Virus record (IMG/VR): IMGVR_UViG_3300036770_004547 | Strand: one strand, 5' to 3' | DNA: 64,000 bases | Source: an uncultured virus (IMG/VR IMGVR_UViG_3300036770_004547) | Lineage: Duplodnaviria; Heunggongvirae; Uroviricota; Caudoviricetes | In this document: in pieces, positions 23,925-43,309 of the stretch | How positions within the stretch are numbered: the stretch's first letter is position 1 | Layout of the letters: every line of letters starts with the position of its first letter | Translations under genes and position numbers: made by a program | The notes under the pieces: generated by a model | Seen by the model: the letters and a program-made list of their open reading frames with translations, nothing else | Told to the model about the DNA's origin: nothing | The model's database searches: none

Positions 23925-24140
23925 ATGACTGACTACACAGATGATCAATTGCTTACCATGGCAATGGCAAACATTGGTCAATTCATTGCTGACAACTCAC
24001 CACACTATGTACTAATTGAAGACCCACGCAACGAAGATGATTACGATACGTGGGACTATGGATGCGAACCATTGCCTCATGATCACACTTGGTATCACAC
24101 ATCAATAGATGTGAGTGTAAATCCAAGTAAGCCTGAGTAG
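23925..24140 (+). CDS. Small acidic hypothetical protein
   Basis: ORF track; preceded by a hairpin at 23885-23916. Confidence 0.55.
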   Translation: MTDYTDDQLLTMAMANIGQFIADNSPHYVLIEDPRNEDDYDTWDYGCEPLPHDHTWYHTSIDVSVNPSKPE

Positions 24141-24203
24141 TCCAGCGGAAGAGACAGGGACCTTAAAAGTCCTCCAGCGTGGGTTCGAATCCCTCCTCAG
24201 GCA
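24131..24203 (+). tRNA. tRNA-Leu(UAA), short variable loop, CCA not encoded
   Basis: Acceptor GCCTGAG/CTCAGGC, anticodon arm GGGAC-CTTAAAA-GTCCT, T arm GTGGG-TTCGAAT-CCCTC, discriminator A. Confidence 0.85.
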
Positions 24204-24221
24204 GTTTTTTATTTTACATTT

Positions 24222-24722
24222 ATGAGCCACGCTAAAGCAGCTTTACTACAAGCTTATAAAAAGGGTTATAGAGTTAAAGATAATGTTGTTTATGGCATTA
24301 TTAAAAAACAACCTTTAAAATTAAGTTGTTCTCAATCTGGTTATTTATATTTTAATATAAAACTTGGACCAAAGACACTTAAAGTATTTTTGCATCGTTT
24401 GGTTGCTTATGAAAAATATCAAGATAAGTTATTTGAACCAGGAATATTGGTTCGTCATTTAAATGGAAATAGTAAAGATAATTCGTTTGAAAACATTTGC
24501 ATTGGAACACAAACAGAAAACATGTTAGACAGGAATCCTGAAGAGCGATTAAACCATGCAATCAAAGCATCTAGTTTTATACGTAAATTTACAAATGAAA
24601 AAGTAAGTCAAATTAAACTTGATCATGCAAATGGTTTAGGTTATAAAGCTTTAATGGAAAAATATTGTATTACTTCTAAAGGAACTTTACATTATATTCT
24701 TACGCGTGAATATGTAACTTAA
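24222..24722 (+). CDS. HNH homing endonuclease
   Basis: HRLVAY...VRHLNGNSKDNSFENICIGTQTENM; markedly AT-rich. Confidence 0.85.
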   Translation: MSHAKAALLQAYKKGYRVKDNVVYGIIKKQPLKLSCSQSGYLYFNIKLGPKTLKVFLHRLVAYEKYQDKLFEPGILVRHLNGNSKDNSFENICIGTQTENMLDRNPEERLNHAIKASSFIRKFTNEKVSQIKLDHANGLGYKALMEKYCITSKGTLHYILTREYVT

Positions 24723-28631: not shown

Positions 28632-30435
28632 GCGTTGGCTGGTGTTTGATATTGAATCTGATAATCTTTATGACAAGGTCACTAAGATTCACTGCATTGT
28701 CATCCATGATATCTACAGAAACAAAACTACTACTTATGGGCCTGACCGCATTAACGATGCTCTTGAGCATTTGGCTTGCGGTCATGTTCTAATAGGGCAC
28801 AACATTTTGTTCTATGACATTCCAGTAATCCGCAAACTGTATCCGTTTTATTTAGAAGAAACAACACGGATCATCGACACACTCATTTGCACTCGACTTA
28901 TCTGGCCTAAAGAAAAACTCTATGAACTTGACACAGAACAATATACGCAGGTTCCAAAGAACTTGTGTGGCTCAGCGTCGCTTAAAGCTTGGGGTTATCG
29001 TTTATCAGATTACAAGATTGACTTCAAAGATTTTTCTGAATACTCAGAAGAAATGGCGACCTACTGTAGGCAAGACGTATCAGTTACCTACAAATTATTC
29101 CAGCACATTCAAAAACAAAACTATCCAGAACCAGCGCTTAAACTGGAACATGACTTTGCTTTGGCAATTGAAAGACAAATTAGATCAGGTTTTCCTTTTG
29201 ATGTTGATGCATGCCTTGATCTGGTGGATGGTCTCAGAACAAAAGAAACGGAACTTGCAACACACCTAAAACAAATCTTTCCGCCCATTAAACATAAAGA
29301 AGTATTTATTCCAAAAGTAAATAACAAAACTCGTGGCTACGTTAAAGGTGTACCATTTGAAAAAATTCGTGTAGAAGAATTTAACCCTGGATCCAGGCAA
29401 CAAATTGTTGAGCGTTTAAAACAAAAGTACAATTGGCAACCTGAAAAACTAACCAAGAAAGGTAATCCAATTCTTGATGATGAAGTCATTGAGAAATTGC
29501 CATATCCAGAAGCTAAACCGTTGGCAGAATATATGTTGATTGAGAAACGTCTTGGTCAAATTGCTGATGGCAACAATGCTTGGCTCAAACTTGTCAACAA
29601 TGACACCGGTTGTATCCACGGCGATCTTATTACTAACGGTTGCATCACCGGACGAACTGCTGCAAGGAATCCAAATATTTCTCAAGTCCCTGCTGCTTAC
29701 TCCCCGTATGGAAAAGAATGTCGAAGTTTATTCCATGCTCCTGACGGGTGGTCTCTTATTGGTGTTGACGCTAAAGCACTTGAGTTGCGTTGCCTTGCTG
29801 GATACCTTGCCATCTGGGACGACGGAGAGTATGCCTCTGTTGTAACAAATCCGGACATTGATATCCATACATACAATCAAGAGAAGTTTAATGTTGCTAC
29901 TAGGGACATTTCAAAACGTCTTTTGTATGGACTCTTGTATGGATGTGGATCTTTAAAGGCTGGAACTATTATTGATCCGGATGAAAAAGATGAAGAAGTT
30001 CTGCGTCAACTAGGAAGTAATGCAATCAATTCATTCATGCGTGGATTGCCCGCACTTAAACGATTAAAGAGTGAAATCAGTTTGATGATTCAAGATCGTG
30101 GCTGGTTATACGGATTAGACAAACGTATTTTGTATTGCCGTTCTGACTTCAAAGGATTAAATGTACTGTTGCAATCTTCTGGTGCATTGATTATGAAACA
30201 AGTTGTCATTAACTTACATCAATCAATGAAAGAAACTGGTTATCAGTATGGAATTGATTGGCAACAAAATGCATTTGTTCATGATGAAATTGAATTAAGT
30301 TGTCCTTTTGATAATGTAAATACAATTACTTCAATATGCTTGCAATCTTTTATAAATGCTGGTAAATTTTTTGGATTCCGTTGTTTAATTGAAGGAGATG
30401 CAAAAGTTGGGAAAACGTGGTATGACACACATTGA
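28609..30435 (+). CDS. polA: Family A DNA polymerase (T7-like, with 3'-5' exonuclease)
   Basis: Exo motifs FDIES, GHNILFYD, YCRQDV; motif A DAKALELR; motif B KRLLYGLLYG (Tyr at the E. coli 762 equivalent); motif C VHDE. Confidence 0.95.
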   Translation: MKANSDTERWLVFDIESDNLYDKVTKIHCIVIHDIYRNKTTTYGPDRINDALEHLACGHVLIGHNILFYDIPVIRKLYPFYLEETTRIIDTLICTRLIWPKEKLYELDTEQYTQVPKNLCGSASLKAWGYRLSDYKIDFKDFSEYSEEMATYCRQDVSVTYKLFQHIQKQNYPEPALKLEHDFALAIERQIRSGFPFDVDACLDLVDGLRTKETELATHLKQIFPPIKHKEVFIPKVNNKTRGYVKGVPFEKIRVEEFNPGSRQQIVERLKQKYNWQPEKLTKKGNPILDDEVIEKLPYPEAKPLAEYMLIEKRLGQIADGNNAWLKLVNNDTGCIHGDLITNGCITGRTAARNPNISQVPAAYSPYGKECRSLFHAPDGWSLIGVDAKALELRCLAGYLAIWDDGEYASVVTNPDIDIHTYNQEKFNVATRDISKRLLYGLLYGCGSLKAGTIIDPDEKDEEVLRQLGSNAINSFMRGLPALKRLKSEISLMIQDRGWLYGLDKRILYCRSDFKGLNVLLQSSGALIMKQVVINLHQSMKETGYQYGIDWQQNAFVHDEIELSCPFDNVNTITSICLQSFINAGKFFGFRCLIEGDAKVGKTWYDTH

Positions 30436-30859
30436 TGTACAAGAATGGTTTGATTATAAAGATGGAAATTTATATTGGAAAAAATCTCCTGCTAAACAAG
30501 TAAAGGAAGGAAGTCAAGCCGGATCTATGAATGCTTATGGTTATGTAAGAGTTACTTTTAGAAAAAAAGAATATATGTTGCATCGTTTAATTTGGTTATG
30601 GCACAAAAAAGAATTAATTGAAGGAATGCAAATCGATCATATTAATCAATGTAAAACAGATAATCGAATTGAAAATTTAAGACAAGTATCTCCGTCTGAA
30701 AATAAATTAAACAATAAAGCTAAATATGTTAGTTACTCGACAAAATCTAAAAAATGGGTCGCTTATGGACCAGCAATAAAACGTGTGTACCATTATATTG
30801 GTATGTTTCAAACCAAACAAGAAGCCGAAGAAGCTGTTAAAATTTATTGTTCGTCCTAG
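30422..30859 (+). CDS. HNH endonuclease (AP2-like C-terminus)
   Basis: HRLIWLWH..IDHINQCKTDNRIENLR..YIGMFQTKQEAEEA; AT-rich. Confidence 0.85.
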   Translation: MTHIDVQEWFDYKDGNLYWKKSPAKQVKEGSQAGSMNAYGYVRVTFRKKEYMLHRLIWLWHKKELIEGMQIDHINQCKTDNRIENLRQVSPSENKLNNKAKYVSYSTKSKKWVAYGPAIKRVYHYIGMFQTKQEAEEAVKIYCSS

Positions 30860-41265: not shown

Positions 41266-41805
41266 TTAAACGCTGAAATATTGTTTGACTGTGTCGATAG
41301 ACACAGGCGTAAAATCATTGCGTTCTACACATGCATTGAAATATTTTTTATCAGGTTTATCTCCATCCATCACAAGATGGCAATGGGTATGACCATGAAC
41401 ATTCCCTCGGTAGTGACCAGATAAACAAGAAGGGTGCACAGGGATGTGCGTAAAGATCAGACCGCCAAGAAAATCAGAGCCTGGTTTAAAGAAAAATGCA
41501 CCGCGTACATCTTCAAAGTACTGAGAAAAATCTTTAAGCTGACCCTGATCATGGTTGCCACGAATCAGAATCTTTCTTCCGTTCAGACGGGTGAGTACCT
41601 TAAGACTGGGTCGTGGCATAACGACATCACCTAGGTGGTACACAGTGTCATGGTTACTCACGGTGTTATTCCAGTTAATAACTATGGTCTCGTCCATCTC
41701 TTCTACGCAAGAGAATGGACGCAACGGTAAGCCACTAGGGTCAACAAAAGAAAGACTTTTGGCGTGACCAAAGTGGGTATCTGCAATAACAAAGATGTTT
41801 GCCAC
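41266..41805 (-). CDS. Calcineurin-like metallophosphoesterase
   Basis: DTHFGH, HLGDV, GNHD, THIP, HGHTH. Confidence 0.9.
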   Translation of the reverse strand: MANIFVIADTHFGHAKSLSFVDPSGLPLRPFSCVEEMDETIVINWNNTVSNHDTVYHLGDVVMPRPSLKVLTRLNGRKILIRGNHDQGQLKDFSQYFEDVRGAFFFKPGSDFLGGLIFTHIPVHPSCLSGHYRGNVHGHTHCHLVMDGDKPDKKYFNACVERNDFTPVSIDTVKQYFSV

Positions 41806-41979
41806 TTACTTTGCGTGCTTTACATACTTTGTGTAATAGATATATCCTACATAATCACTGCAAAGATGACAGAAAAAATCTCCGCCATTATTTTCTGCAT
41901 GTGTCATGCACCAATACCATTCTTCAAAGCATTGTCCAAACCACCACCAACCAACAAATAGCCTTTCAAAAAAATTCAT
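41806..41979 (-). CDS. Small Trp/Cys-rich protein (not in track)
   Basis: MNFFERLFVGWWWFGQCFEEWYWC... Confidence 0.45.
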   Translation of the reverse strand: MNFFERLFVGWWWFGQCFEEWYWCMTHAENNGGDFFCHLCSDYVGYIYYTKYVKHAK

Positions 41980-41995
41980 TGGTTTTTAATTTAGA

Positions 41996-42102
41996 GTCGT
42001 CTGCATGGGATTCGAACCCACATCGCTAAAACCCACTGACTGAAGTACTGCGTCCAGTACCCAAGTGGGGAGCCGCCTTATCCGTTAGTTCGCAACAGAC
42101 GA
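41996..42102 (-). ncRNA. tRNA-like domain lacking an anticodon loop
   Basis: Acceptor TCGTCTG/CAGACGA, D-like loop with GG, T arm GTGGG-TTCGAAT-CCCAT; anticodon arm replaced by a ~50-nt bulged stem. Confidence 0.75.
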
Positions 42103-42536
42103 GTGACCCATCTGTTTGAGCTTCATCTCGAATTCATTTGTCATTCGCGAATAGCAAATAAACCCTTGGTAAGAGATAGGCTTGATGGGTGTTTGAACGG
42201 GTCTAACCTGCGATCCGTAAGGGGTACCTTTCCCTTCAAAGGCTCTGCAGAGTCCAGGGCGGTTGGCCAACCGTATATAGTCCGTCGAGCTTGCCAAATG
42301 GGTCCCCGGCTCAAAGGTGGACTAATCCCCTACGCAAACCAGCAACGTTCGAAAAAGGTCCGAACCAGAATCGACGCAGTGCCCATTCCTGTTGGCTGCA
42401 CCCTACCGACAGAGCAGTAGGGGTGGTTGAACAGTCCTCCCAAGGCAAGTGCCAAGTTCAGACTGTGGGATAGATGGACCAGGTGTGTCGCCTTCTAGGC
42501 TGTTTGCCTAACGCGCACAGGGACCTGGTTTCTATC
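41996..42536 (-). ncRNA. Putative large (~540 nt) structured ncRNA
   Basis: Extended -10 TGTTATACT at 42552-42544; contiguous helical domains; no credible ORF. Confidence 0.7.
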
Positions 42537-42554
42537 AAAAATTAGTATAACAGA

Positions 42555-42620
42555 AATTCCTGGTTGCTCAAGCCAGGAACGGCAACTTTCGGAATCCCAT
42601 CCAATGGATAGTTGAGCAAT
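42555..42620 (-). ncRNA. Putative ~65-nt pseudoknotted small RNA
   Basis: TATAAT at 42629-42624; 5' TTGCTCAA is complementary to the loop of TTCCTGG-CTTGAGCAA-CCAGGAA. Confidence 0.5.
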
Positions 42621-42630
42621 GTGATTATAA

Positions 42631-42801
42631 CTATTTTTTCTTAGCAGCAGCTTCTTTCTTTTTGGCGATCATCTCTTTAAACTTGTCGCGAGCGGCAGCT
42701 TGCTTGTCGGTAGCACCAGTCTTACTTTTAGCAGGGGCAGCCTTACCTTTCATCTCAGGCTTCATTTTGCCTTTAGCAACAGGAGCTTCTTTCTTTTTCA
42801 T
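42631..42801 (-). CDS. Lys/Ala-rich histone-like peptide (56 aa, not in track)
   Basis: MKKKEAPVAKGKMKPEMKGKAAPAKSK...AAAKKK. Confidence 0.6.
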   Translation of the reverse strand: MKKKEAPVAKGKMKPEMKGKAAPAKSKTGATDKQAAARDKFKEMIAKKKEAAAKKK

Positions 42802-42830
42802 GATGTTTTAGGATCTATTACAATTTTAAC

Positions 42831-43025
42831 TCACTTCTTTTTGCGAGCAGCTTTACTTGCTTTCTTTGCTGCTTCAGTATTGGGAACAAACTGCTTGCCT
42901 TGTTTACTACCCGCTTTCTTCTTGGCATCTGTCTTGGCGCGTTCCTCTTTTGAAAGAGAAGCCCATGCTTTCTCTGGGAGGTAGCGTTTAGTTTGTCCTT
43001 TCTCAATTGCTTTATCGGCTGCCAT
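42831..43025 (-). CDS. Small basic protein
   Basis: RYLPEKAWASLSKEERAKTDAKKK. Confidence 0.65.
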   Translation of the reverse strand: MAADKAIEKGQTKRYLPEKAWASLSKEERAKTDAKKKAGSKQGKQFVPNTEAAKKASKAARKKK

Positions 43026-43309
43026 TACTTTGACTCCTTATACTTTTTAGCTGCTGACTTAGCCTTAGATCTTTTTTCATACTCTTCTCGAGTACTCCAT
43101 TTTTCTTTGCTCCACTTTTCTAAATCTTTTTGTTTTTCACCCTTGCCACCTTTGTATCCGCCGCCGGCTTTTTCGTATTCCTGAGCTAATAGTTGCGAGC
43201 GTCTTGCGCTCCATTGACCCGGCTTGCCTCCCTTAGAACTTGCCATGATGCGATCTTTAATTCGCTCACGGAGTTCTGGCTTTGTGTACTTGCTATCGTC
43301 TTGCGCCAC
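43025..43309 (-). CDS. Small basic protein
   Basis: YTKPELRERIK..GGKPGQWSAR..YEKAGGGY..LEKWSKEKW. Confidence 0.7.
   Translation of the reverse strand: MAQDDSKYTKPELRERIKDRIMASSKGGKPGQWSARRSQLLAQEYEKAGGGYKGGKGEKQKDLEKWSKEKWSTREEYEKRSKAKSAAKKYKESK

What the first reader, a model, noticed from the sequence alone, without database searches (positions are those of the whole stretch)
41996..42102. tRNA mimic whose anticodon arm is replaced by a long bulged stem
Seen (minus strand): acceptor TCGTCTG/CAGACGA (extendable to 8 bp by a U-G pair), a D-like segment AACTAACGGATAAGGC, and a canonical T arm GTGGG-TTCGAAT-CCCAT. In place of a 17-nt anticodon arm it has GCT..CCCAC..GTACTG-gacg-CAGTAC..GTGGG..AGC, with no 7-nt loop. 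The discriminator is C and CCA is not encoded. It lacks the G3-U70 alanine identity of tmRNA. Inference: a processing signal (RNase P/Z) that matures the upstream large RNA, a decoy for tRNA-targeting defence enzymes, or a tRNA with an unusual removable insert.
Basis: partly seen in the sequence, partly recalled or inferred. Interest (0 to 1): 0.72.

Follow-up and report, generated by a model that had tools for sequence, protein, structure and literature searches.

The report
Phage tRNA-shaped RNA without anticodon
This is a real, conserved phage gene for a tRNA-shaped RNA that cannot read codons because its decoding arm is replaced by a long hairpin; it sits at the end of a non-coding RNA operon, probably serves as a cutting signal for tRNA-processing enzymes, and probably has a further job that is still unknown.

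Summary
Window 41997-42101 (minus strand) encodes a 105-nt tRNA-shaped RNA. It has a 7-bp acceptor stem (C1-G72), U8, an extended D arm with the GG elbow motif, and a canonical T arm. A 49-nt rod of three helices ends in CUG-GACG-CAG where the anticodon arm should be.

ARAGORN and Rfam do not call it. I found 40 distinct relatives in phage and metagenome contigs, among them the isolated Synechococcus phage S-EIVl, with one copy per genome. On 34 of them, 20 of 31 base pairs show compensatory changes and 96.4% of cells pair, against 31-45% for shifted controls.

No relative has a normal anticodon arm, so this is not a recent insertion or a spliceable tRNA. It lacks tmRNA features.

It lies at the 3' end of a promoter-driven non-coding RNA unit. 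Five bases upstream is an abiF-type RNA motif, the antitoxin RNA of AbiF defence nucleases, and no AbiF gene accompanies it. The same motif and the same UCACU linker abut a true tRNA-Gly in an unrelated cyanophage. This supports tRNA-type punctuation by RNase P/Z (inferred, not shown).

The sequence-conserved D arm and apical hairpin imply a further role with an unknown partner. This is a new, uncatalogued family of a known kind.

The parts
41997..42101 (-). The tRNA-shaped, non-decoding RNA (105 nt): acceptor, D arm, rod, T arm and discriminator A at 41997
   Evidence: Covariance model R1 scores it 93.6 bits, E 1e-20; covariation; sequence
42095..42101 (-). Acceptor stem, 5' strand (CGUCUGU)
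   Evidence: Pairs with 41998-42004; 6 of 7 pairs show compensatory change and C1-G72 is invariant in 34 of 34
42074..42092 (-). Extended D arm: 2+2 bp stem with an internal bulge and an AAC-GGAUA loop, preceded by invariant U8 at 42094
   Evidence: Its sequence was also conserved in relatives retrieved without requiring it
42025..42073 (-). Rod replacing the anticodon arm: helix a (3 bp), helix b (5 bp), helix c (6-8 bp), two internal loops and a 4-nt apical loop
   Evidence: The window and L199 carry a 4-5-nt extra CAGU-type repeat in the 3' internal loop
42048..42057 (-). Apical hairpin CUG-GACG-CAG
   Evidence: In a scan that did not require it, 13 of 19 family hits keep it exactly. Three keep GACG with compensating stem changes, one has a GACC loop and two lack it
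42005..42021 (-). T arm (5 bp plus UUCGAAU loop)
   Evidence: 3 of 5 pairs covary and 99.4% of cells pair
41998..42004 (-). Acceptor stem, 3' strand (GCAGACG)
42102..42105 (-). Linker CACU. Together with the last U of the abiF-like motif (42106) it reads UCACU, directly before position 1 of the mimic. This is the inferred RNase P leader
   Evidence: The same UCACU sits between the abiF motif and tRNA-Gly in phage S-CREM1 and in many relatives
42106..42189 (-). abiF-type RNA motif with a 54-nt insertion in its terminal loop
   Evidence: RF03085 scores 27.9 bits against a gathering score of 37, E 0.025. Short versions in relatives score 45.4-50.7 bits, above gathering
42190..42536 (-). Upstream modular non-coding RNA of unknown family, starting with the conserved GAUAGA... 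5' block
   Evidence: No ORF with a family hit and no Rfam hit. Blocks are shared in different combinations among relatives. Contigs from three RNA libraries lie on 42190-42498
42544..42571 (-). Promoter-like site (TTGAGC, 16 nt, TG-n-TATACT), just after a terminator-type hairpin of the preceding small gene
   Evidence: Equivalent extended -10 boxes precede the RNA in relatives. The transcription start near 42536 is inferred
41266..41805 (-). Downstream phosphoesterase gene. In six relatives it starts 15 nt after the mimic; here a 57-codon ORF (41806-41979) lies between
   Evidence: Pfam Metallophos_2 and phrog_547; synteny

Best explanation
This is a single-copy gene of S-EIVl-type phages for a tRNA-framed, non-decoding small RNA. 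The tRNA frame is the acceptor stem, the D/T elbow with all the usual tertiary-contact bases, and the T arm. It makes the transcript a substrate for the host's tRNA maturation enzymes: RNase P at the 5' end, and RNase Z or exonucleases plus the CCA-adding enzyme at the 3' end.

In this window the RNA is the last unit of a roughly 540-nt non-coding transcript that starts near 42536. Cutting at its 5' end would release the upstream RNA, whose last module is an orphan AbiF-antitoxin-type hairpin ending in UCACU. Cutting at its 3' end would separate it from the downstream message.

The excised RNA of about 105 nt cannot enter decoding, because a 49-nt rod replaces the anticodon arm. It most likely works as a stable scaffold that presents its sequence-conserved D arm and G-GACG-C hairpin to a partner not yet identified.

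Shown here: the fold, its conservation and covariation, its non-decoding nature, its copy number, and its place in tRNA and non-coding RNA arrays.

Inferred: the processing by RNase P/Z, the CCA addition, the stability, and the existence of a partner.
For: - Fold and selection: 34 distinct sequences, 20 of 31 pairs with compensatory changes, 96.4% of cells paired, 0 of 500 shuffles as good, slid controls 31-45%. Independent RNAalifold support.
- tRNA core: U8, the AA..GG..A D loop, U in the 3-nt variable region and GGTTCRAWYCC are invariant or nearly so.
- Non-decoding: no ARAGORN or Rfam tRNA call. In 18 relatives' loci the family is not called tRNA, except one distant variant.
- Copy number: one strong match per genome in 8 of 8 family-bearing records searched, four of them at least 90% complete, plus the complete S-EIVl genome.
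- tRNA-array context: a tRNA-like 'companion' or tRNA-Val ends 1-2 nt upstream, tRNA-Pro and tRNA-Thr lie 16-18 nt downstream, and another tRNA lies 5 nt downstream in L128.
- Punctuation: the abiF motif ends 5-6 nt before the mimic in 11 loci and 79-84 nt before it, with the companion between, in 6. In S-CREM1 the same motif plus UCACU abuts a real tRNA-Gly, and the manA RNA there is flanked directly by tRNA-Leu and tRNA-Asn.
- Transcription unit: an extended -10 promoter-like box and the same 5' block in relatives. Contigs from RNA libraries of three studies lie on 42190-42498.
- More than punctuation: the D-arm sequence was conserved in relatives found without requiring it. The apical GACG loop is kept through compensatory stem changes. 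The mimic is retained in complete genomes that lack any abiF motif and in a sub-lineage that lost the whole upstream RNA.
Against: - No experiment or read-level data show the RNA's ends. The RNA-library contigs do not cover the mimic itself, which proves nothing either way.
- The single-sequence MFE prefers another fold by 5.3 kcal/mol.
- Relatives were retrieved with exact-match patterns taken from the D arm, the apical hairpin or the T loop, so the 'invariance' of whichever motif a pattern contained is partly by construction.
- Two family members (L358, L364) have a short rod without GACG, so the apical hairpin is not universal.
- The discriminator varies (A, C, U, G) and no partner is identified.
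- In the sub-lineage where the promoter abuts the mimic, the -10 box ends only 3 nt before position 1. How a full 5' strand is made there is unclear.
Confidence: 0.6

Rival explanations
1. Punctuation only. It is a decayed tRNA gene kept solely as an RNase P/Z cleavage signal that trims the neighbouring RNAs. The rod has no function of its own.
For: The same slot after abiF-UCACU is filled by a true tRNA-Gly in S-CREM1. The element lies in tRNA arrays. Two members have a different, short rod.
Against: The rod's three helices are kept by compensatory changes and its apical loop by sequence. The D-arm sequence is far more conserved than the acceptor or T stems. The element persists where there is no upstream RNA to trim.
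Confidence: 0.17
2. Anti-defence decoy. The excised tRNA-shaped RNA binds and blocks a host nuclease that recognises the tRNA body, for example a HEPN-type or anticodon nuclease. It offers no cleavable anticodon loop, and it acts alongside the neighbouring orphan AbiF-antitoxin-type RNA.
For: It is adjacent to an abiF-type motif. That motif is the direct RNA antitoxin of the AbiF HEPN RNase (PMC12373285, abstract and passages; PMC12737573, passages). No Abi_2 gene is found in the window's 64 scanned ORFs, in the S-EIVl or S-CREM1 genomes, or in 7 other records. Phage tRNAs that counter tRNA-cutting defences are known (PMC11555353 and PMC13096335, abstracts seen in the listing).
Against: There is no evidence for any interaction. 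AbiF is described as cutting its own ncRNA and single-stranded RNA non-specifically, not tRNA (PMC12737573 passage). The mimic occurs in complete genomes without the abiF motif. I did not show that hosts carry AbiF.
Confidence: 0.17
3. A working tRNA after removal of an insert, or a tmRNA-like or aminoacylated RNA that acts on the ribosome.
For: It has an intact acceptor stem, elbow and T arm. CCA could be added after transcription, as for the phage's own tRNA-Leu.
Against: No anticodon loop can be formed by removing the apical hairpin: the four members checked by eye leave 9 to 13 nt, with no conserved U33-type loop. No relative has a normal arm. Position 3:70 is C-G 16, U-A 15 and U-G 3 of 34, never G-U. 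The discriminator varies. ARAGORN finds no tmRNA. The rod is a closed hairpin without a reading frame.
Confidence: 0.04
4. Chance resemblance or dead pseudogene.
For: No tRNA or Rfam detector calls it. The single-sequence z-score is only -2.15.
Against: There are 40 distinct conserved relatives with compensatory changes in every helix, one copy per genome.
Confidence: 0.02

Closest known systems
Canonical tRNA (Rfam RF00005)
   Same: 7-bp acceptor stem, U8, D loop with GG, 5-bp T stem with the GTTCRAW loop, a discriminator, and location in phage tRNA arrays.
   Different: It has no 5-bp anticodon stem or 7-nt loop; a 49-nt three-helix rod stands there instead. The D stem is extended with a bulge and the variable region is 3 nt. 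It is not called by ARAGORN or Rfam.
Stable tRNA-cluster RNAs of coliphages (T4 species 1/RNA C and species 2/RNA D; T5 RNA1-3)
   Same: They are phage-encoded, lie among tRNA genes, have tRNA-like ends and have no known function. This is recalled from the classical literature and named as closest known in earlier notes of this scan. I did not compare sequences.
   Different: My paper search listed no paper describing their structure. This family is confined to S-EIVl-type phages and has its own D-arm and GACG signatures.
tRNA-like domain of tmRNA
   Same: An acceptor stem and T arm, with the anticodon arm replaced by a long helix.
   Different: There is no G3-U70, no mRNA-like domain, a real D stem, and no ARAGORN tmRNA call.
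tRNA-like processing elements (mascRNA at the MALAT1 3' end; tRNA punctuation of transcripts)
   Same: A tRNA-shaped element directly abutting another non-coding RNA, so that RNase P/Z would define that RNA's end. For mascRNA I saw only listing abstracts (PMC8457004, PMC9777231).
   Different: Those are eukaryotic. Here cleavage is inferred only, and the element has extra conserved parts that punctuation does not explain.
abiF RNA motif (RF03085), the antitoxin RNA of AbiF/Abi_2 HEPN RNases. This concerns the upstream neighbour, not the mimic
   Same: Relatives' copies score above Rfam's gathering threshold. An abiF sRNA has been reported in cyanophage S-CREM1 (PMC9964418, passages and Table 4).
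   Different: The window's copy has a 54-nt loop insertion and scores below threshold. No abiF gene is nearby or in the phage genomes searched. It is followed by a tRNA or tRNA mimic, not by a toxin gene.

Membership tests
Canonical tRNA (RF00005 / ARAGORN) | 7-bp acceptor stem with a discriminator | tested here: met
   7 pairs, 99.2% of cells paired, 6 of 7 with compensatory change
Canonical tRNA (RF00005 / ARAGORN) | D arm and T arm able to form the elbow (G18 G19 with the T loop; U8, A14, A21) | tested here: met
   These bases are invariant or nearly invariant. The D stem is non-standard: 2+2 bp with a bulge. The tertiary contacts themselves are inferred
Canonical tRNA (RF00005 / ARAGORN) | 5-bp anticodon stem with a 7-nt loop (U33 and an anticodon) | tested here: not met
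   A 49-nt rod with a 4-nt apical loop stands in its place
Canonical tRNA (RF00005 / ARAGORN) | Detected by the family's model at its threshold | tested here: not met
   No hit at gathering score or at E<=10. ARAGORN finds none
tmRNA | G3-U70 alanine identity pair | tested here: not met
   Position 3:70 is C-G 16, U-A 15 and U-G 3 of 34
tmRNA | mRNA-like domain with a tag reading frame inside the replaced arm; detected by ARAGORN | tested here: not met
   The rod is a closed 49-nt hairpin. ARAGORN reports no tmRNA
abiF RNA motif RF03085 (upstream neighbour at 42106-42189) | Score at or above the gathering threshold of 37 bits | tested here: inconclusive
   The window scores 27.9 bits with a 54-nt loop insertion. 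Homologous positions in L195, L152, L183 and L185 score 45.4-50.7 bits. S-CREM1 scores 52.2 bits
abiF RNA motif RF03085 (upstream neighbour at 42106-42189) | Association with an abiF/Abi_2 toxin gene | tested here: not met
   No PF07751 hit in 64 window ORFs, in the S-EIVl or S-CREM1 genomes, or in 7 further phage records
tRNA-like processing signals (RNase P/Z substrates) | Cleavage by RNase P at position 1 and by RNase Z after the discriminator | not testable with these tools
   Only context is available: the UCACU linker, neighbouring tRNAs 1-18 nt away, and a true tRNA in the same slot in S-CREM1
Phage tRNA-cluster stable RNAs (T4 RNA C/D type) | A stable RNA co-transcribed and co-processed with phage tRNAs | not tested
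   No sequences or models of these RNAs were compared. The resemblance is recalled and comes from earlier notes

The most novel reading that the evidence does not exclude
The mimic is one module of an RNA-only counter-defence array. Cyanophages would string together orphan antitoxin-type and other decoy RNAs (here an AbiF-antitoxin hairpin plus unknown modules). They would use tRNA-shaped units to have the host's own RNase P/Z cut the modules apart. The tRNA-framed unit would itself be a decoy that presents a conserved G-GACG-C hairpin and D arm to a host factor that binds tRNA.
Probability: 0.2. Interest if true: 0.85.

Novelty: new variant of a known kind. Interest (0 to 1): 0.62.

Why it matters
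Phage tRNA clusters have long been known to hold odd stable RNAs whose function is unknown. This family adds a well-supported case: 40 variants and covariation in every helix. It is present in a cultured phage-host pair (S-EIVl on Synechococcus), so it can be tested at the bench.

Its position is informative. It sits directly after an orphan AbiF-antitoxin-type RNA, with a linker shared with an unrelated cyanophage where a true tRNA takes its place. This suggests that phages use tRNA shapes to mature non-coding RNAs, possibly RNA decoys against abortive-infection nucleases. If confirmed, it would link tRNA mimicry, RNA processing and counter-defence. It would also give natural examples of the 'tRNA scaffold' principle used to stabilise recombinant RNAs (that principle is recalled, not read here).

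Tried and rejected
- Spliceable or suppressor tRNA. A UUCA string in the window's 3' internal loop looked like a UCA anticodon, but it is not conserved in relatives.
- tRNA-Sec-like 8/5 architecture. The eighth pair is not conserved.
- Bacterial homologs. A genome-contig scan for the apical hairpin plus T loop gave 120 loci. By eye all but one are coding-sequence coincidences or tmRNA ends. One conserved coding-sequence context accounts for 44 of them, and its translation looked like leucyl-tRNA synthetase to me (not run through any tool). The exception, L271, is a 3.6-kb contig of a MAG that carries the phage locus.
- First broad pattern (15 bases of the D arm): 117 or more mostly chance loci, not used further.
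- L131, an 82-nt variant in a provirus with a normal D arm and a CGCUG-GACG-CAGCG hairpin. It scores 35 bits with my model and 44.7 bits with Rfam's tRNA model. It was found through a pattern containing the hairpin, so its kinship is uncertain.
- L138/L233, a Clostridia prophage stretch with the same 16-base hairpin next to a T-loop hairpin. At 16.7 bits and E 0.27 it may be chance.
- RNA evidence for the mimic itself. Four RNA-library runs were laid. None of their contigs covers 41997-42101 or the flanking genes, and run X15 gave nothing. This is no evidence of absence.
- Complementarity of the apical loop to CUGCGUC in the upstream RNA. It is present in the window and L195 but not general.
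- Functional link to the downstream phosphoesterase. It matches only a generic phosphoesterase family, and the synteny holds in one sub-lineage only.
- Earlier notes of this scan for this genome or this sequence: none.
- Literature. Searches found no description of this family. PMC10690425 (passages read) lists thousands of unnamed phage RNA candidates that could include it; I did not open its supplements. The Cell 2025 AbiF paper was not held.

Full report
**What is there.** On the minus strand, window 42101-41997 reads as a 105-nt RNA. The window is a tailed-phage genome. It encodes a terminase, family A DNA polymerase, D5-type primase-helicase, SSB and virion proteins. The small genes just upstream are 73% identical to Synechococcus phage S-EIVl. 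ARAGORN finds one tRNA in the window, tRNA-Leu(UAA) at 24131-24203, and nothing at the flagged site. Rfam finds no tRNA there, at gathering score or at E<=10.

**Relatives.** The S-EIVl intergenic region that corresponds by synteny holds a clear homolog. Pattern scans of viral, metagenome and genome collections followed. With a covariance model built from 31 sequences plus a hand-set structure, they gave 34 distinct sequences scoring 86-111 bits. Six more distinct variants scored 64-100 bits. Ordinary tRNAs in the same loci score no more than 28 bits. Each family-bearing phage record searched has exactly one copy, 8 of 8, including the complete S-EIVl genome and four records at least 90% complete. 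The T4-like cyanophage S-CREM1 has none. Of 50,697 GenBank phage records, blastn finds the element only in S-EIVl. Retrieval used exact-match patterns, so diversity is under-sampled. Whichever motif a pattern contained is 'invariant' in its hits by construction.

**Structure.** The acceptor stem is CGUCUGU/GCAGACG and C1-G72 is invariant. The discriminator is A in the window and A, C, U or G across the family. After U8 comes an extended D arm: C10-G28, G11-C27, a two-base bulge, C14-G25 and Y15-R24, with an AAY(N)GGAYA loop. Then come helix a (3 bp), helix b (5 bp) and helix c (6-8 bp) capped by GACG, a 3-nt variable region (GAU) and a canonical T arm.

On the model-fitted alignment of 34 distinct sequences, 96.4% of 1054 cells pair and 20 of 31 pairs have changes on both sides. 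No shuffle in 500 reaches the observed pairing or covariation score, and sliding the partners gives 30.7-45.1% paired. The 'further pair types' measure was not distinctive (240 of 500 shuffles). Helix b is the weakest, at 86.5% paired, partly because its register differs between sub-lineages. An independent MAFFT/RNAalifold run gave 14 of 23 predicted pairs with compensatory change. Alone, the window sequence prefers another fold: MFE -37.4 against -32.1 kcal/mol for the family fold. Abundant G-U pairs fix the strand.

**What is conserved in sequence.** The D arm was conserved in members found with a pattern that did not include it. The apical hairpin was tested with a scan that required only the D arm and T loop. 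Of 19 family hits:
- 13 keep CUG-GACG-CAG exactly;
- 2 have CCG-GACG-CGG;
- 1 has CAG-GACG-CUG;
- 1 has CUG-GACC-CAG;
- 2 (83 nt) have a short rod with another loop.

So the loop is under selection in most of the family, though not all of it, and its stem covaries.

**Not a decoder.** No member has a 7-nt loop on a 5-bp stem. Removing the apical hairpin leaves 9 to 13 unpaired bases in the four members checked by eye, with no conserved anticodon-like loop. Position 3:70 is never G-U. CCA is not encoded, but the phage's real tRNA-Leu lacks it too.

**Context.** The element ends a non-coding unit. A promoter-like TTGAGC / TG-n-TATACT box sits at 42571-42544 on the minus strand, right after the terminator-type hairpin of the last small gene. 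Relatives have equivalent extended -10 boxes followed by the same GAUAGAGG... start. The RNA between the promoter and the mimic has no family-supported ORF and no Rfam match except one. It is built from blocks that recur in different combinations in relatives. Short contigs from RNA libraries of three studies lie on 42190-42498 and nowhere else in 41500-43000. This is a weak hint of an abundant RNA.

The one Rfam match is the abiF motif, at 42189-42106: 27.9 bits against a gathering score of 37, with a 54-nt loop insertion. At the homologous place, L195, L152, L183 and L185 carry short versions scoring 45.4-50.7 bits. By a simple pattern test, 18 of 38 assessable loci have the motif within 260 nt upstream. 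In 11 it ends 5-6 nt before the mimic. In 6 it ends 79-84 nt before, with a second tRNA-like between. In 1 it ends 179 nt before. Three loci had too little upstream sequence to assess.

The abiF motif is the RNA antitoxin that binds and neutralises the AbiF/Abi_2 HEPN RNase (PMC12373285, abstract and passages; PMC12737573, passages). No Abi_2 domain is found in 64 window ORFs. None is found in the S-EIVl and S-CREM1 genomes or in seven other phage records. The motif is therefore orphan.

In S-CREM1, where an abiF sRNA was already reported (PMC9964418, passages and Table 4), the order is tRNA-Asn, abiF motif, UCACU, tRNA-Gly. The manA RNA there is flanked directly by tRNA-Leu and tRNA-Asn. The window has the same UCACU between the motif and the mimic.

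Elsewhere the mimic lies:
- 2 nt after tRNA-Val (L159);
- 1-2 nt after a tRNA-like 'companion' (L141, L143, L170, L214);
- 16-18 nt before tRNA-Pro and tRNA-Thr (L140, L170);
- 5 nt before another tRNA (L128).

**Reading.** A slot that can hold either a true tRNA or this mimic, next to RNAs that need defined ends, is best explained by tRNA-type processing. RNase P would cut after UCACU, and RNase Z or CCA addition would act after the discriminator. This is inferred from context.

Three facts argue for a second role, carried by the D arm and the rod:
- three near-complete or complete genomes keep the mimic without any abiF motif;
- a sub-lineage (L004-L006, L008, L217) lost the whole upstream RNA but kept the mimic;
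- the D arm and GACG hairpin are conserved in sequence.

I cannot name the partner. A decoy role against tRNA-binding defence nucleases is attractive because of the neighbouring orphan antitoxin RNA, but nothing here tests it.

**Comparison with known things.** The element fails the tRNA and tmRNA membership tests. It resembles, in kind, the stable RNAs of coliphage tRNA clusters and tRNA-like processing elements. Earlier notes of this scan describe other phage tRNA-shaped, anticodon-less families. I used them as leads only and tested none. My five literature searches found no description of this family. A catalogue of about 10,000 unnamed viral RNA candidates (PMC10690425) could contain it; I did not open its supplements.

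**Verdict.** This is a new, uncatalogued RNA family of a known kind. It has an experimentally tractable member in S-EIVl.

Noticed in passing
window 42106-42189 (-); L195:2942-2978, L152:2629-2665(-), L183:1873-1909, L185:2941-2977; L372 (S-CREM1) 1532-1568: Orphan abiF-type (AbiF antitoxin) RNA motifs occur in two unrelated cyanophage lineages. Each is followed by the same UCACU linker and then a tRNA or tRNA mimic, and no Abi_2 gene is found in the phage. This may be a phage-made antitoxin mimic, and it deserves its own study.
   Followed up: partly
window 42190-42536 (-); relatives: A promoter-driven, modular non-coding RNA of about 350 nt starts with a conserved GAUAGAGG..CCAGGUCCCUG..CACACCUGGUCCAUC block. 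Further blocks are shared in different combinations between phages. It has no Rfam family. Contigs from RNA libraries of three studies lie on its core.
   Followed up: partly
L001:4612-4685 (S-EIVl); L141:1592-1665(-); L170:1431-1504; L214:478-551; L186:155-227; L197:2399-2471; L152 and L143 upstream of the mimic: A second non-decoding tRNA-like family (the 'companion') lies directly upstream of the mimic in many phages. It has normal acceptor, D and T arms, but a 3-bp stem with a GACAA loop (conserved CGACAAG) in place of the anticodon arm. ARAGORN calls it tRNA-??? with a 2-base anticodon, or tRNA-Cys(ACA). Both mimics display GAC at the start of a small loop.
   Followed up: no
window 42025-42073 (-), 3' internal loop: The window and L199 carry an extra 4-5 nt (a CAGU-type tandem repeat) in the rod's 3' internal loop that other members lack.
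   Followed up: no
L004, L005, L006, L008, L217 (for example L006:1530-1600, minus strand): In one sub-lineage the whole upstream RNA is missing. A TACAAC -10-like box ends 3 nt before position 1 of the mimic, so how its 5' end is made there is unclear.
   Followed up: no
window 43151-43249: About 100 nt in the small-gene cluster match Pelagibacter phage HTVC033P at 75.8% identity. This is unexpected for such distant phages. It lies under an annotated hypothetical protein there.
   Followed up: no
window 24131-24722 (+): The phage's only ordinary tRNA, Leu(UAA), is followed 19 nt later by an HNH endonuclease gene (24222-24722). A second HNH gene lies at 30389-30859, beside the DNA polymerase gene.
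   Followed up: no
L372 (S-CREM1) 746-1644: In S-CREM1 the wcaG, manA and abiF RNA motifs are interleaved with tRNA-Met, Leu, Asn and Gly, with 0-50 nt spacers. This suggests that tRNA punctuation of non-coding RNAs is general in cyanophages.
   Followed up: partly
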